Below, piece after piece: positions 9,614-63,246 of a stretch of DNA of 64,000 bases. A program made the position numbers and the translations under genes. The notes beneath the pieces were generated by a model that had not been told where the DNA came from, searched no databases, and saw only the letters and a program-made list of their open reading frames with translations. Source of the DNA: Cetorhinus maximus (Eukaryota); the NCBI RefSeq assembly GCF_964194155.1, contig NC_135887.1:16864001-16928000 (forward strand), given 5' to 3'. The first letter of the stretch is position 1, and each line of letters opens with the position of its first letter.

Positions 9614-9688
9614 GTTACCCAAACTTTGTTGCAACGTACGGCCGTGGATACCCAGGATTCGCACCAAGCTACAGCTACCAGTTCCCAG
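9614..9688 (+). CDS. MSI2: Musashi-2 internal coding exon (75 nt, phase 1-1), post-RRM2 region
   Basis: ttttaaag|GTTACCCA...TTCCCAG|gtatgt with upstream ctaac branch-like motif and pyrimidine tract; encodes (G)[24 protein letters not shown](G), nearly identical to vertebrate MSI2 [26 protein letters not shown] and unlike MSI1. Confidence 0.97.
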
Positions 9689-11857
9689 GTATGTGGACCC
9701 TTGATTCTATCTCGCACCAGCCCCTAATCCTTCCATTCCCCCGACCCCCGTCGCCATGTTAAAAAGTGCGTAACAAAACCACGGCGCTCCCTCCCTACAA
9801 GGTTTCGTGGTTTCATTCCAGCTCCCAAAATGAGCCTCTTCTGGTTATTTGTAAACCATTATGTGGTAAAATGTGGGAACTAAAAAAAATCTTCTTTCAG
9901 TTTGAGGTTCTGTTTCAGATCGCTGGCATTTCTGGCCGAGAGAGTGGGGCAAATAACTTACTACTCCTCCCCACCACCCAGGCTTCTCTCCCCCCCCCAC
10001 CCCCACTCAGTTTGTCTCTGACCCTTCCCCTTGCCATTCTTACCATGGCACGTTTGTGATTTAGGACCATCTGTGTGATCCCAGGTTGAAGCCGCATGTC
10101 CTTCCTCTTGTAAAATACAATTTTTATCGGGACGTTGGCATCACTGGCAAGGTTGGCATTTATTGCCCATACCTCATTGCCCTGAGAGTGTGGTAGTTCA
10201 TCAAGCCAACTCAGAGGGCAGCAGCTAAGAGTCCGCCACATCTGCAGTGGAACTGGTGTCCCATATAGACCAAACCAGTTAATGGCAGCAAATTTCTTTC
10301 CCTAAAGCTCCTTAGAAGATCACCTTCGAAGCCCTGACACATCACGCAGCCAAGGCACAGACCAGTCACGAGTATGTTGGCTGTCTAGTCATGTTCTCAT
10401 TCTTACAGCCATTCTCCCACTACTAAGGCATCAGCAAGTCCAGGGAAGAGAAACACATTCCTGATTGAGGAACGCTCGAGGGGCCAAATGGCCTACTCCC
10501 GCTCCTGTTTCTTATGTTCTTAACCCAAATTTGGGACCTGCTGTTCCCCATTCACTTCCATTGTGTAGAATTCCAATGTTTCCATCCATTTGCATTGTGC
10601 AGAATTCCTAATGGAATGCATAACACTCACCTGCCAAGTTCTCCGATATCTCTTCCATCAATGCTTACCATACCCAGTCCACAACCACTGTCACCTCGAG
10701 GCAGCTGTGTACTTTAGGCTTTTAATCACGGCGTGTATGTTTTCTGATAACGTGTTAGTTTGGAATGAGTGATTAAATGACCATGTCGCACAGAGAGACA
10801 TGCAGTCTGCTTATTTTTATCTGCAATTTAAGGATATCGTAATCTAATCAGGACAATTCTTGGGCAAAGGTGTGACGTGTTTATTAGGATTTGGCAGGGG
10901 TGGGGGGGGGTGGCGGCGAGACCGAAGTCATTTTGTAATAAGCATTTTCGCCTTTTGAAACTACGTACATTAGTTGGGGTTTGGAACGGCAGAGTCAAGG
11001 TAAAGGGGGACCTTTACCTGAAAATCAAATCCTACTTCACTGCGCAAGTTCCTAGCTCACTGTAGGCTGTTGTATATTTTGGAGGATGATTATTCTGTCC
11101 CTAGCGATATGACTAGATGCCAAATTCACAAAATCATTAATGAGAAAAAGTGTTATTCTGTGAACTCACACATCGAATGTTCAATAATGTTAGCAGTGGG
11201 GTCACTCAGACTATCCCATCAGCTCAGTGATGCTATCCGGCTGTAACTATTTGCAAAGCCCATTAACTTTTGGCTCCTAGACTATTCTATGGTTGCATAA
11301 ATTGTTCAACTCTTAAGCTTTGTAGTCACCACCCCACCTCTTTACAAATTTCTGTTTGAACCCGTGTGGTGCCCATTAGCATTTAATGGGAATGATGAAC
11401 CACACTTGGGAAAGACGAAGTAAAACGTATCTGATTGTGTCAATGGTAGCTGATTGGAGGATCTCTCTCTCTCCTCCCCCCCCCCAACTTTCTGGGTATA
11501 AGTGCCACAGCTAGTCAATGGCTTGACAGTCCTTTGTGGTGAGAAGTGGTTAGCAGAGTGCTGTCACAGATGATTTGAGCTGAGGGGGTTAACTTACGTC
11601 GATGCAGTCAGCCGACTGCCGAGTCTAGCAGGGTACCGGTGAAGTCTGTAACGTTGAATGTAAGATGGTCTGGGGCCAAGCTTTCTGGCCACAGCAGCAG
11701 CTCTGTGTAAATACAGTGGGATTGGAATAGACAAGATGTGTTGTGCGATGAGCCTGTGAAGATTACTTGCTTCCTATAATTGGCTCTCCCCTTTCCACAG
11801 TGTGCAGCAGGTTTCACTTTGCCATTTGGCACACACATTGGGCCCTTTTATAGGTCA

Positions 11858-16943: not shown

Positions 16944-17600
16944 ATCAGTTATCACTTTAGACCCCCTCCTGCCACCAGCCGTGCCCCTAATATGGGTTGG
17001 GGGGGGCAGCTCAAAAGTGCTCTGATCAGGAGCAGCCCCCCAAACCATAACCCCACCCCCCCACCCAAAGTTTGGAAAGGGTTCATGTACAAAATGAACC
17101 TTCTTGTCTGTTAGAGCGTTCGCCCCACCATCACCACCACCACTAAAGTTTGGAAAGAGTTCATCTTACAAAATGGACCCTCTTGTCTGTTAAAGCGTTC
17201 GCTGTGTGAAAAGTTTTGCCTGTCTTTTATGCTTTGTGACAAGAACGTTGACAGGAACCCTGTACAAGAGCTAGCTCAGTTTCTGCGATATTCATTCAGC
17301 ATGTGTGAGCTAACCAGGAAACATCTCTTCATACTCTCGCTCTCTCTCTCTCTCTCTCTCTCTTTTTATTGGCTGTAGTTTTCTTTTTTTTTTGGTTTCG
17401 TGCTGTACAAATGAATGAGCCTCATTTATATTTGGATATTTATATATCATTTTTAATTATATTAAGAATAATCATCCACCTCTGATTTACTTTTTATGTT
17501 TTTTTTTTAAAAATTGCAACTTCTTTGATTCTTTTTTTTTTAAAAAAAAATCCTTTTGGGGTATCACACCATTAATTTCTTTTCTTATTTCACTTTTCAG

Positions 17601-17641
17601 ACTGTTTCCAGATTTCACAAGATATTATTTTTATCAACTAA
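17601..17641 (+). CDS. MSI2: MSI2 alternative last exon, coding part (short isoform C-terminus)
   Basis: tttcttatttcacttttcag|AC TGT TTC CAG ATT TCA CAA GAT ATT ATT TTT ATC AAC TAA; phase 1 after the 9614-9688 exon gives ...QFP-DCFQISQDIIFIN*, matching the human short isoform end (DYLPVSQDIIFIN, from memory). Confidence 0.88.
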
Positions 17642-18212
17642 ATTTTTCCCCCCCCCGCCCCCCTTGCAAGTTAGCGAGGTTTCCTGCAGTGTTAATGAGA
17701 ACCTGGGTGGCTGGCTGTGATTAATTATTGCCTTTCGCTGGAATTATCACTAATAATAACTGCCTGGGCCCATCACCTCATTTATATTTATATATATATT
17801 TTTAATTATTTTTTAAAACACATTCCATCAGCTGTCCACCATTTTGCTTCCTGCATGATTAATTTGCTTCTGATAATTTAAATGCTTGCTTTATTTTTTG
17901 CTGTATTGTACAAACAGTTCCTTCCATGTCACTCTCTCAGTTCCGCGAGTTGTGGACAGCGCTTTCTATTTTTACATTTGCTGAACGACCCCCTCCCCTC
18001 CCCCCACCTCCCCTCCCCCCCTCCCCTCCTCCTCCCCTCCCCTCCTCCTCCCCCACCACCCCCCTTCTCACAAGGTTTCAGTTTTAAAAAAGAAAAATTC
18101 TTATTTTTAATAGTCCCTGAAGTTTAAAAAAAAAAATGGTGGCTGGATATTAACTGCGCCGTAATCTCTCGAGATTTGTTTTTATTAGGTCAATAGTTAG
18201 CAACCCCCCCAC

Positions 18213-18355
18213 CACAACAACTTGTAGTTTATATAGCACCCGTAACATCCCAAGGTGCTTCACAGGAGCATTATCAGATAAATTCTGACACCAAGACGCA
18301 TAAGGAGATTTAAGGACAGCTAACAAAAAGCTTGGTCAAAGAGGTGGGATTTAAC
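18213..18355 (-). mobile_element. L2 LINE 3' tail
   Basis: acaacaacttgtagtttatatagc...aaaagcttggtcaaagagg. Confidence 0.75.
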
Positions 18356-19780
18356 TACCGCCCACCAGTTTTTAAGTCCAATATGGAACAGAATCTTTCC
18401 ACACTGGAATGCTGCTAGTTTGTTACCATAGTCTGAATTAACTGGTAATCAGCTAGTTGGAGCCAGCCAGAGTGACAGGATGTGACCAGTTATCCACCTT
18501 TGCCACAATAATCATGCAGCAATGGTCCCTTAGTGTCCTGGACCAGTGAAGAGCATTAACTTAAGCCAGCTTCCCTCTCTTGCACCAATGATTGTGTGTT
18601 GAGTTTCGATGGTGAGCCCCCCCCCCCCCATTGTCAAATAGCTTGCTGCTGCCCACTGCCGAGGCACAAGTGACTAATGGCCACTTGGGCAAAATGCCAA
18701 AGAGTGGCTGGGCCTGTGGAATTGCACCCCAACATGAGTCCGTGACTTCAGAAGCGGTGGGTGTTTTGGGGGAGTGTTGGTCACGGGGGGTTAAAAGTTG
18801 TGGAAACTCAGACCTATTATAATGAGGGGTTGTGCCACAATCTTCAGGGACTTTTTAAGAGTTTCAAAAAAGGCACTACATGAAAATTTGTGAGAAGTGT
18901 GATGCGTACTAGGGATTAATTGTGTATTTAAAAAGAGAAGTCTCCCTTTTCTTGGCTTAACAAGGCTGTACGTTCAGTTGCTATGGAGGTTGTTAACCAT
19001 ACCATAATTAAGATGGCTGCTTGTTAACCATGTTGCTCTTTGCAGTGACACTGCCTTCTTTGTCAACAAGATAGGTGATTAAACATTTTCACAAGCAGAA
19101 GGACTTGTGACAGTATTTTTTCTTTATCTAGTGCAAATGAACAATAAAGAAATTGGACTAAAATGATCCATATTCTGAGCAAAATCCAGTTATTTTTTTT
19201 GGTTGGCAAAATTTTTGTCACCCAAAGTAAAGGCCTTCGGGCCTAGTGCTGCAGGGCTACTTGCTTCTTAAACACTTTACTGCAGGAGTCCAGTTCAAAA
19301 AGTACTCTAAAGCTGAATGAAGTCAGTCAGATTCTTTAACCTTCACTGAGTCCAGTCTACATAAGCCAGTGAAAGGAAAGCTTTCTTAACTTAATTTTTT
19401 TGAAGGTCACTTAATTAATAAGTCACGGAAGCCAAACAAGCTTAAATTATCACGTCACTCTGTTCCTGTTAATTAAACATGCTTGATGTAATTAATTGTA
19501 TAGCTTGAAATAGTGTTGAAGTCACTGGCTTTCTACTCTGTATTTTTTTGTAATGTGAAGACACTGGTCTCCTTGTTGACTCTTTATTTTGTGATAGTAG
19601 AACTGTGAATACTGATTGTTGCTTAGTTTGAAAGTGATTTGAGTTTTTTTTTCTGTTGTGGATTAGAACGGTCCCTTTTCTCACTTATCTGTAATCATAG
19701 CTCCTTTGTTCTGCTTTTAAAATTTCATTTTTTCCCTTTTTTTTTTAAAAGTATTTTGCTGTACCTAATTTAGACAGACA

Positions 19781-19860
19781 AATAAAGAGAATTTCCTTCA
19801 ATAAATCTTATGCAGTGTGTGTGTGTGCTCCTCTTTTAACTGCAATTTCTTTTTTTTTTG
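19781..19860 (+). terminator. Candidate polyadenylation site of the MSI2 short isoform
   Basis: AATAAA at 19781 and 19800, upstream TGTA, downstream (GT)n and T-rich tract; another AATAAA at 19143. Confidence 0.4.
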
Positions 19861-24844: not shown

Positions 24845-26145
24845 TGCCATAAATAGATGCACAAAGTATAAAAGCAAGGAAATTATGCTAAATTTTTATA
24901 AATCATTGGTTAAGTCTCAGCTAGCGCATTGTGTCCAATTCTGCGCACAACACCTTTGGAAGGGATATCACAGCCTCAGAGAGGGTGCAGGGACGATTTA
25001 CTAGAATGGTACCAGGGATGAGGGACTTCAGTTATCTCGGAGAGTCTAGAGAATCTGGGATTCTCCTTTGAGCAGAGAAGATTTGCTAGAAGTATTCCAA
25101 TTCATGAACGGTTTTGATAGGGTAAATAATCTGACAGGCGGGTCAGTAACCAGAGGGCACGGGGATGATAGCATAGTGGTAATGTTGCTGGATTAGTAAT
25201 GCAGAAGCCCAGGCTAATTCTGCAGAGACATGAGTTTACATCCCACCATGGTAACTAAGGGAATTTAAATTCAATTAATGAATAAATGACTGGATTGTCC
25301 CATCTGGTTCACTATAGAGAAGGAAATCTGCTGTCCTTACCCGGTCTGGCCTACATGTGACTCCAGAGCCACAACAATGTGACTCTTAACTGCTTTCCCA
25401 GCCAGTGGCCTAACAGGCCGCTCAGTTGTATCGAACCACTGCAGAAATAGTCCAGGACAAAGCAGCCCACTTGATCAGCACCCCAACCACCAACCTAAAC
25501 ATTCACTCCCTCCTCCACTGACGCACAGTGGCAGCAGTGTGTACCATCTACAAGATGCACTGCAGCAACTCACCAAGCCTCCTTCGACAGCAAGTCCCAA
25601 ACCCGTGACCTATACCCCAAAGAAGGACAAGGGCAGCAGACACATGGGAACACCACCGCCTGGAAGTTCCCCTCCAAGTCACTCTCCACCCTAATTGAGA
25701 AATATATCGCAGTTCCTTCACTGTCACTGGGTCAAAATCCGGGAACTCCAGCACTGTGGGTGCACCCGCACCGCATTGACTGCAGCAGTTTAAGGTGGCT
25801 CACCACCGCCTTCTCGAAGGGTAGTTAGGGACGAGCAATAAACGCTGACCTAGCCAGCAACACTCATGAATGAATAATTAAAAACTCACAGAGGGGAGAT
25901 GAGGAGAAAGTTCTTTTAAGCAGTGAGCTATTATGGTCTGAATGTGCTGCCAGAAAGGGTGGTGGAAGCAGATTCAGTGGTAACTTTCAAAAGGGAATCA
26001 GATCTACATATGAAATAGAGAGAAAAAAAATATTGGGGCTATAGGGAAATAGGGGATTGGGATTAATTTGATAACTCTTTACAAGAGCCAGAACTGGTAT
26101 GATGGACCAAGTGACGGCCTCCTGTGCTGAATGATTTTATGATTC
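24845..26145 (+). mobile_element. CR1 fragment interrupted (25160-25880) by a SINE head fused to a LINE-A 3' end
   Basis: CR1 breaks at accagagggcac and resumes at aggggagatgaggagaaa; the insert carries the SINE core, then ccaggacaaagcagcc...cagcaac LINE-A end. Confidence 0.75.
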
Positions 26146-27679: not shown

Positions 27680-28735
27680 TAATAATACAATATAAGCTTC
27701 TATAAAGCACCAGTTTCAGCTGCAGCTGGATTCTGTGCTCAATTCTGGGTGCCACACTTCAGGAAGGTTGTTGAAGGATTTGGGGCTGGCTGAGAGGAGT
27801 TTTACTGGAATGGTACCCAGGGCAAGGGATTATAGTTAAAATAAAAATAAAATACTGCAGATCCTGGAGATCTGAAATTAAAACAGAAAATGCTGGAAAA
27901 ACTCAGCAGGTCTGGCAGCGCCTGTGGTGAGAGAAACAGAGTTAACGTTTCGAGTCCGTATGACTCTTCTTCACTAGCAGCATTCCAAGTGTAGACAGGT
28001 TCCACATTGGACTTGAAAATTGGTGGGGTGGTTGTTAAATCCCACCTCTTTGACCAAGTTTTTGATCACCTGTCCTTAAATTTCCTTATGTGTCTTAGTG
28101 TCAAAATTCACCTGATAATGCTCCTGCGAAGCACCTTGGGATGTTACGGGCGCTATATAAATGACAAGTTGTTGTGGCGAGGTGCTAACCATTGACCCTA
28201 ATAAAAACAAATCTCGGAAGATTATGGCACTGTTAATATCCAGCCGCCGTTGTTATTTTTTTTACTTCAGGGACCATTAAAAATAAGAATTTTTCCAGCA
28301 TTTTCTGTTTTTATATGAGGGATTACGGTTACTTGGATCGCCTGGAGAAGGTGAGATCGTTCTCTTTAGAGCAGACAGGGCCTGGCGAAAGTTTATCTAG
28401 AATAAATAAAGATTAGCTGTTTCCAATGACAGAAGAATCAATAGTCAGAGGGGCATAGATTTAAGGTGATGGGCAAATTAACCCAAGGCAACCTGAGGAG
28501 ATACTTTTTTTTAACGCAACAAGTGGTTAGGATTTGGGATTATCTGCCTGACGGTGGGGTGGGGGCAGGGTAGATACAGATTCAATAGTGGCCCTTCAAA
28601 AGGGAATTGGGTAAAAACTTGAAGGAGAAAAAAATATGGGGATAGAGTGGGAAGTGTGAACTAACTGGATGGCTGTTTTATACGGCCAGCATAGACTTGC
28701 TGGGCCGAGTGGCTTACTTTTGTGCTGTGCTCTTC
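27680..28735 (+). mobile_element. CR1 fragment interrupted by a PLE-ended composite insert (27838-28315)
   Basis: CR1 text stops at gggattatagtta and restarts at gggattacggtta. Confidence 0.7.
27938..27973 (-). ncRNA. Truncated minimal type I hammerhead ribozyme (Penelope-type)
   Basis: Reverse complement tgaaga-a-gagtc-atacg-gactc-gaaa-cgtt-aactct: (C)UGAAGA core, 5-bp stem II, GAAA, palindromic AACGTT stem III; C3 and the 5' strand of stem I are lost. Confidence 0.6.
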
Positions 28736-62298: not shown

Positions 62299-62358
62299 GC
62301 TTCCCAGCAGCGGCCTACGGCCCAGTAGCAGCGGCAGCGGCAGCAGCGCGAGGCTCAG
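62299..62358 (+). CDS. MSI2: Musashi-2 coding exon (60 nt to proximal donor; 117 nt to distal donor at 62415)
   Basis: poly-C..ccattcag|GC TTC CCA GCA GCG GCC TAC GGC CCA GTA ... CGA GGC TCA G|gtaggg = (G)[19 protein letters not shown](G), in phase with exon 9614-9688 and matching MSI2 [22 protein letters not shown]. Confidence 0.95.
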
Positions 62359-63246
62359 GTAGGGGCGCCCGTGGAAGAGGCGGCTACATGGCATACCCTC
62401 AGAATGTAGGGGCAGGTAAAACTCTGTCGGTATTCTGTGTGGCTGCAGCTGTCCATCGTCACTCTCTTGTTGGTTCTCTGTTGGTTCCTTGCTCCTCTCT
62501 CCTGGGATGGGGGTGGGGTGGGGGGGTGGGAGGTGGCGGGTGGTGGGAAGGGGGCAAGGGGGTGGGGGGAGGTGGGCTGGGGGGGTGAGGTCAGAGGTGG
62601 GGAAGGTGACCTGCATTTTTAAGCAGAGGCCCCAAGTGCGAGTTGGCCTTGAGCACAGTAGCAGGGGGAGGCCGTAGTTAAGACAAGCTTCTAAGCATAT
62701 TGTAATGAAGGAGGGGTGGGTACGAGAACAGTCGCTTGCTTTTTTAAACGGAGGACCAGGGTTAAGGTGTCGTTCCAAAGTTACGTTCCATGCAAACATG
62801 TGCTGCTTGCAAAGGATTGCCAGTCCAGAATTATGTGTGCTGGTTTTAACTGTGATGCTGAGTGTGGTGATTGGCCAGTTACTGGATTAGGGCCCCATTC
62901 AATCCTATACTTATTTTTAAGAACAATTGAAAAAAATGTTTTGAGGAAGCAATTATTATTTTTGAAATTGCTGCCACTTCCTCAAGTCTTCGTGTCTTAA
63001 ATTAAAAGCTGGTCCTTTCCCTGTCCTCTTTTTCTCTCTCTCTCTCTCTCTCTCTTTCCCATTCCCTTCTTCCATTCTCTCTTCTCGCTTCTCTACCTTC
63101 TCCCCTATATCCTCTCTTGTTGCCCCACCTGCATTCCCTCTCTTCGCCATCCGTCCTCACTCTTCCCCATTTCTGTTCTTTCTCTTCCTCATTCATGCCC
63201 TTTCTTTTTCACATCTCTGTCTTCCTTGCTGAAAAAAGAGACATGC

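What the first reader, a model, noticed from the sequence alone, without database searches (positions are those of the whole stretch)
17180..17980. Deeply conserved alternative last exon giving a C-terminally truncated MSI2
Seen: strong acceptor at 17600/17601 and a phase-1 frame DCFQISQDIIFIN*, inside a long TE-free block. Established (recalled): the human short MSI2 isoform ends ...QFPDYLPVSQDIIFIN and lacks the C-terminal region with regulatory phosphorylation sites. Inference: identical SQDIIFIN* in a chondrichthyan would date this full-length versus truncated switch to the jawed-vertebrate ancestor, implying function rather than splicing noise.
Basis: partly seen in the sequence, partly recalled or inferred. 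Interest (0 to 1): 0.7.

Follow-up and report, generated by a model that had tools for sequence, protein, structure and literature searches.

The report
Ancient short-form exon of Musashi-2
A shark's Musashi-2 gene holds the same early "stop here" exon that makes the known short human form of this stem-cell RNA-binding protein, and related fishes splice it in, so the short form likely dates to the first jawed vertebrates and likely binds RNA without the control sites of the long form; it is a known isoform, found to be old.

Summary
An AG at 17599-17600 opens a phase-1 exon, DCFQISQDIIFIN-stop (17601-17641), 7.9 kb into MSI2 intron 10. It matches the human variant-2 tail at 9 of 13 residues; the other 3,600 AG sites of the intron reach at most 5. 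The exon 10-to-17601 junction is in 4 of 7 runs laid, from four other organisms and four studies; no run of the window's own species was laid. The same tail already ends predicted 255-aa isoforms of sharks and a ray, and near-identical tails occur in amphibians, turtles, crocodilians, birds and mammals. This is the orthologue of human exon 11b (PMC5599597), inferred to predate the shark-tetrapod split. Variant 2's alternative N-terminus is also encoded in this genome. Limits: no such tail in 177 ray-finned fish proteins (biased sample), none reported in mouse, none in this genome's MSI1. Whether selection acts on the protein or on the RNA is open. The isoform is known; its age was not found in print. 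The scan's index showed no earlier MSI2 finding.

The parts
9614..9688 (+). MSI2 exon 10 (75 nt), donor GT at 9689; shared by both isoforms
   Evidence: its last bases are joined to 17601 in contigs
17572..17600 (+). Branch-point-like TTAAT, polypyrimidine tract and AG acceptor of the alternative last exon
   Evidence: 17565-17627 has 1 difference in an unspliced contig of organism C; branch point inferred by eye
17601..17641 (+). Coding part of the alternative last exon (orthologue of human exon 11b): DCFQISQDIIFIN + TAA
17642..17960 (+). Proximal 3' UTR, about 90% identical in organisms C, D, E up to 17937
   Evidence: 29-32 other letters, 12-13 gap letters per contig; X1 contig to 17985
17961..19820 (+). 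Distal 3' UTR (covered in pieces to 19400, the edge of the stretch laid; the 3' end is inferred)
   Evidence: pieces in X1, X4, X6
18092..18340 (.). Dispersed repeat inside the inferred 3' UTR
   Evidence: (40 of 40 scored candidates match, 1,592 candidates)
19781..19805 (+). Two AATAAA hexamers followed by GT- and T-rich sequence: candidate poly(A) signal (untested; another AATAAA at 19143)
62299..62415 (+). Competing canonical exon 11, donors after 62358 and 62415

Best explanation
This is the shark orthologue of human MSI2 exon 11b, an alternative last exon spliced onto exon 10 in related fishes, which likely arose by the time of the jawed-vertebrate ancestor and likely yields a short Musashi-2 that binds RNA but cannot be switched on by phosphorylation. 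Steps: (1, shown) the exon-10 donor can join the strong acceptor 7.9 kb into the 52.6-kb intron instead of exon 11; (2, inferred) the transcript is cleaved about 2.2 kb further on, near 19781-19805, so the downstream exons and their 3' UTR are lost; (3, shown as sequence) the 255-aa product keeps both RRMs and lacks the exon with the two Ser-Pro sites; (4, shown for the human protein only, inferred for shark) it occupies Musashi targets as a signal-insensitive repressor and competes with the full-length form.
For: Junction GT..AG 9688->17601 in X1 and X9 and exon-10 letters as loose ends before the exon in X9, X12, X16 (letters compared); in X9 spliced depth 304 against unspliced 12. Tail in 31 of 534 fetched proteins, 4 of them shark or ray with the identical 13 residues. 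Length, phase and S-Q-D, I, F, N invariant in all 7 distinct in-frame tails. Against a human primer, both changes within SQDII are synonymous third positions. 0 listed differences in 41 coding nt against 29-32 in 296 UTR nt (Fisher P 0.02-0.03). The Ser-Pro motifs used as phospho-antigens in PMC5599597 lie 25 residues apart in a downstream exon of G000 (L021). Human variant 2 binds RNA, fails to rescue oocyte maturation and transforms NIH3T3 cells (PMC5599597).
Against: No junction in the three organism-B runs (X4, X5, X6), which barely or do not cover the exon; no own-species run laid; runs are 'RNA?' by guess. No protein evidence in any fish. Among cartilaginous fishes synonymous sites are unchanged too and the UTR is about 90% identical, so RNA-level constraint is present; organisms C, D, E share most differences and count as one comparison; the human comparison rests on 22 nt, with three amino-acid changes upstream of SQDII. 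Tail absent from 177 ray-finned proteins and not found in mouse (PMC5599597). MSI2b overexpression or knockdown had no significant effect in breast-cancer cells (PMC7245804); PMC5599597 calls variant 2 low-expressed.
Confidence: 0.62

Rival explanations
1. The exon is real and ancient but works at RNA level: early termination lowers the dose of full-length MSI2 or swaps the 3' UTR, and the peptide is kept because splicing or RNA elements overlap it.
For: No synonymous change either among chondrichthyans; UTR about 90% identical with a 96-nt stretch (17742-17837) without listed differences, 40 nt of it skipped as repeat. 7 of 177 ray-finned models stop within 10 residues of exon 10 with unrelated tails. 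No phenotype for MSI2b in one study.
Against: Synonymous-only change in SQDII against human; mostly conservative substitutions and fixed length across 7 tails; indels start right after the stop; Musashi elements are not enriched in the UTR (6 seen, 7.5 expected), so direct autoregulation has no support.
Confidence: 0.25
2. The 13-residue tail has a function of its own (a degron, or a localisation or binding motif), beyond removing the C-terminus.
For: S-Q-D-x-I-F-x-N invariant and mildly hydrophobic (mean hydropathy 0.2-0.6). That hydrophobic C-termini can trigger degradation is recalled, from no call.
Against: Variant 2 and canonical MSI2 reached equal levels in oocytes (GST fusions, PMC5599597); no known motif was matched.
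Confidence: 0.09
3. Conserved enhancer or other DNA element with leaky splicing, or junctions from a processed pseudogene.
For: Repeat-poor block; retrocopy-like proteins with this tail exist in cats (P0124, P0125).
Against: Single copy in G000; exact GT..AG junction in four organisms with no coding differences; spliced exceeds unspliced depth about 25-fold in X9; frame and stop kept across vertebrates.
Confidence: 0.04

Closest known systems
Human MSI2 variant 2 / isoform b (NM_170721, NP_733839), exon 11b (PMC5599597)
   Same: Same intron (10), same phase, same 13-residue length, 9/13 identical, same loss of the exon with the two phosphorylation sites; the alternative N-terminus is also encoded in G000 (28 of 30 aligned positions, L002:1994-2080).
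   Different: First residues differ (DCFQI against DYLPV). Database shark models pair the tail with the canonical N-terminus; pairing with the alternative start is untested. No functional data in fish.
RefSeq predicted 255-aa MSI2 isoforms of cartilaginous fishes (P0302 Chiloscyllium, P0398 Scyliorhinus and others, P0403 Pristis) and P0016
   Same: Identical tail joined to exon 10.
   Different: Automatic models without study; no paper found that discusses them.
Zebrafish msi2b C-terminally truncated splice variants (cited in PMC5599597; the paper itself not held)
   Same: Said to lack both phosphorylation sites.
   Different: Their tails could not be seen; no ray-finned protein fetched carries this tail.
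Conserved intronic-polyadenylation or alternative-last-exon switches in RNA-binding proteins, such as CSTF3, PCF11, QKI (recalled, from no call)
   Same: A proximal terminal exon competes with downstream splicing and is conserved in vertebrates.
   Different: Those have described feedback loops or tail-encoded localisation; none is shown here.

Membership tests
MSI2 (Musashi-2) gene | Two RRMs in ordered exons and MSI2-type rather than MSI1-type C-terminal exons | tested here: met
   Exons in order on G000:C9; window exons 100% identical to shark MSI2 proteins, MSI1 paralogue separate on C12 at 64-80%
MSI2 exon 11b (variant 2 last exon) | Lies in the intron between exons 10 and 11 | tested here: met
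   17601 lies between 9688 and 62299; human position from PMC5599597
MSI2 exon 11b (variant 2 last exon) | Encodes a 13-residue tail like DYLPVSQDIIFIN, then a stop | tested here: met
   9/13 identical, unique among 3,601 AG sites
MSI2 exon 11b (variant 2 last exon) | Spliced directly to exon 10 in RNA | tested here: met
MSI2 exon 11b (variant 2 last exon) | Terminal exon with its own poly(A) site | tested here: inconclusive
   Contig pieces reach 19400, AATAAA pair at 19781/19800; contigs cannot show an end
MSI2 exon 11b (variant 2 last exon) | Product lacks the two regulatory Ser-Pro sites | tested here: met
   Both motifs lie in a downstream exon, L021:3715-3924
MSI2 variant 2 as a whole | Alternative first exon 1b on the same transcript | tested here: inconclusive
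   The alternative N-terminus is encoded just upstream of and in frame with exon 2; its use and pairing in sharks not tested
MSI2 variant 2 as a whole | Binds RNA but fails to activate translation | not testable with these tools
   Shown for human only (PMC5599597)

The most novel reading that the evidence does not exclude
Both ends of human MSI2 variant 2, the alternative N-terminus and the alternative last exon, are a coordinated programme as old as jawed vertebrates that builds a phosphorylation-proof Musashi repressor whose SQDIIFIN tail is a selected motif; it arose in MSI2 after the MSI1/MSI2 duplication and was lost in ray-finned fishes and mouse, so the two main model animals have hidden an ancestral Musashi switch.
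Probability: 0.2. Interest if true: 0.6.

Novelty: new member of a known kind. Interest (0 to 1): 0.35.

Why it matters
Variant 2 is treated as a minor human isoform with conflicting functional reports (transforming in PMC5599597, inert in PMC7245804) and no mouse orthologue. Showing the exon spliced in cartilaginous fishes, with its frame fixed across sharks, a ray and tetrapods, argues that it is under selection and not tumour splicing noise, and points to chick, frog or catshark as animals in which to test it. It is a useful dating of a known isoform, not a new kind of system.

Tried and rejected
No listed run is on record as RNA; the 'RNA?' runs were judged by their spliced joints. X4, X5 and X6 (organism B) gave no junction and little or no cover of the exon. 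A paralogous exon in MSI1 intron 10: best of 182 AG sites scored 20 (5/13), but its upstream sequence is purine-rich with no pyrimidine tract, and blastn gave nothing better than E 0.02: rejected as chance. Musashi autoregulation through the UTR: no enrichment of binding elements. RBFOX control: one TGCATG at 17852, changed at its first base in four runs: no support. Other annotated inserts between exons 10 and 11 were sought in the intron: only noise, apart from one weak match at 25003-25044. The zebrafish msi2b paper is not held. Paper searches gave nothing usable on the lost C-terminal region. Two earlier scan findings concern other genes. No fold or complex was run: a 13-residue tail on a disordered region would not be informative.

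Full report
Setting. The window is G000:C9:16864001-16928000 and lies in MSI2: a 255-aa shark protein (P0398) maps exon by exon along C9, with the paralogue MSI1 on C12. The window holds exon 10 (9614-9688) and exon 11 (from 62299), 52.6 kb apart; later exons lie in L019 and L021. That the animal is a shark is inferred from identity to shark proteins.

Observation. An AG at 17599-17600 follows a tract that is 91% pyrimidine, with no other AG for 134 nt. In phase 1 the exon reads DCFQISQDIIFIN and stops at 17639-17641. Scored against the human tail, this site gives 9/13 identity and score 45; the other 3,600 AG sites of the intron reach at most score 17 and 5/13. The stretch is single-copy in G000. 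About 16960-18090 is free of dispersed repeats as far as the search sees, but a repeat with many copies sits at about 18092-18340.

Splicing. Of 23 runs listed, 7 were laid; all are assembled contigs and 'RNA?' by guess. A joint skipping 7,912 nt with GT..AG ends, equal to 9688->17601, appears in X1 (organism A) and X9 (organism C). In one search, X9, X12 (D) and X16 (E) carry 27 loose letters before the exon that are the end of exon 10 (identical in X12 and X16, one synonymous change in X9; window letters printed). That is 4 of 7 runs, four organisms, four studies. X4, X5, X6 (organism B) show no junction and hardly cover the exon. In X9 the spliced contig has depth 304 and the unspliced one 12. 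Contig pieces continue to 19400 in X1, X4, X6; two AATAAA at 19781 and 19800 with GT-rich sequence behind are the likely end (untested). No run of the window's own species was laid.

Conservation. Three searches and three cluster look-ups fetched 534 proteins; 31 carry the tail: 26 directly after exon 10, 2 after a bird cassette exon, 2 in cat proteins with an insertion, 1 frameshifted in duck. Four have the window's exact 13 residues: P0016, P0302 (Chiloscyllium, 3 contigs), P0398 (Scyliorhinus among its names, 5 contigs) and P0403 (the ray Pristis). The others are frogs, caecilians, turtles, crocodilians, birds and mammals, including human NP_733839. Across the 7 distinct in-frame tails, six positions never vary. 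None of 177 ray-finned fish proteins with exon 10 (191 picked by hand from the names) has the tail; the sample favours long cluster representatives and at most 15 members per cluster were listed, so this is weak evidence of loss. No lamprey protein and no short chimaera, coelacanth or lungfish form with the tail was seen. MSI1 intron 10 of this genome has no credible counterpart. Same intron, phase, length and core sequence in elasmobranchs and tetrapods make one origin at or before their common ancestor the simplest reading.

What is constrained. In organisms C, D, E no difference is listed in the 41 coding nt, against 29-32 in the next 296 nt, with indels starting just after the stop (Fisher P 0.02-0.03). 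These three share most differences, so this is one comparison; 4-5 differences per contig are unlisted, probably in a skipped repeat; and synonymous sites are unchanged as well, so it cannot separate protein from RNA constraint. A 22-nt human primer from PMC5599597 differs at five places: two synonymous within SQDII and three amino-acid-changing before it. This leans to protein-level constraint on the core, on little data.

Mechanism. PMC5599597 (seen: passages; the Discussion; supplement searched) describes human exon 11b, says tblastn found orthologues in 'a number of vertebrate species' but not mouse, and shows that variant 2 binds RNA, cannot rescue oocyte maturation and transforms NIH3T3 cells. 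The two Ser-Pro sites it studies are present 25 residues apart in a downstream exon of G000, so the shark short form would lack them too. I commit to a signal-insensitive repressor isoform made by proximal splice choice plus intronic polyadenylation (0.62), with RNA-level dosage or UTR control as main rival (0.25). PMC7245804 (seen: passages) found no significant effect of MSI2b in breast-cancer cells, which counts against a strong protein role.

Extra. The alternative N-terminus of human variant 2 is also encoded in G000, in frame just upstream of exon 2 (L002:1994-2080, 28 of 30 aligned positions). Database short isoforms combine the tail with either N-terminus, so coupling is not implied.

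Novelty. The isoform is known, and the shark form is in automatic annotation. Its presence in cartilaginous fishes was not found in print: searches; the peptide occurs only in PMC5599597, which has no 'shark' in text or supplement. Most subscription papers are not searched, and the zebrafish msi2b paper was not held. Verdict: real, ancient, orthologous to a known exon; interest 0.35.

Noticed in passing
L002:1994-2080 (G000:C9, MSI2 intron 1): The alternative N-terminus of human variant 2 is conserved as a 5' extension of exon 2 (28 of 30 aligned positions, one residue shorter); expression untested.
   Followed up: partly
window 18092-18340 and 28049-28295: The repeat in the inferred 3' UTR has its closest copy (87-88%) in inverted orientation about 10 kb downstream in the same intron; the pair would flank the candidate poly(A) site.
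   Followed up: no
window 62299-62415: Exon 11 has two donors (after 62358 and 62415); the 57-nt extension encodes an RG-rich stretch also seen in reptile, bird and marsupial models.
   Followed up: partly
P0124, P0125: Cat and tiger proteins that look like decayed processed copies of the short isoform, with five extra residues in the tail; they suggest germ-line expression of the short mRNA (inference).
   Followed up: no
P0058, P0194: A duck model is frameshifted within the tail and a finch model reads the exon in another frame; the duck reading implies TAG where the shark has TAA at the same stop position (inference, may be an assembly error).
   Followed up: no
L003, about 187-306 nt into MSI1 intron 10: A strong acceptor and a donor enclose about 120 nt of open frame: a possible MSI1 cassette exon (read by eye).
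   Followed up: no
window 17054-17202: An imperfect tandem duplication with a period of about 78 nt just upstream of the finding's start.
   Followed up: no
window 25003-25044: Weak match (E 0.005) to part of a 47-residue insert annotated between exons 10 and 11 in catshark models; probably repeat-derived.
   Followed up: no
P0189: A 79-aa fragment of vertebrate MSI2 is labelled Staphylococcus aureus in the database, probably contamination.
   Followed up: no
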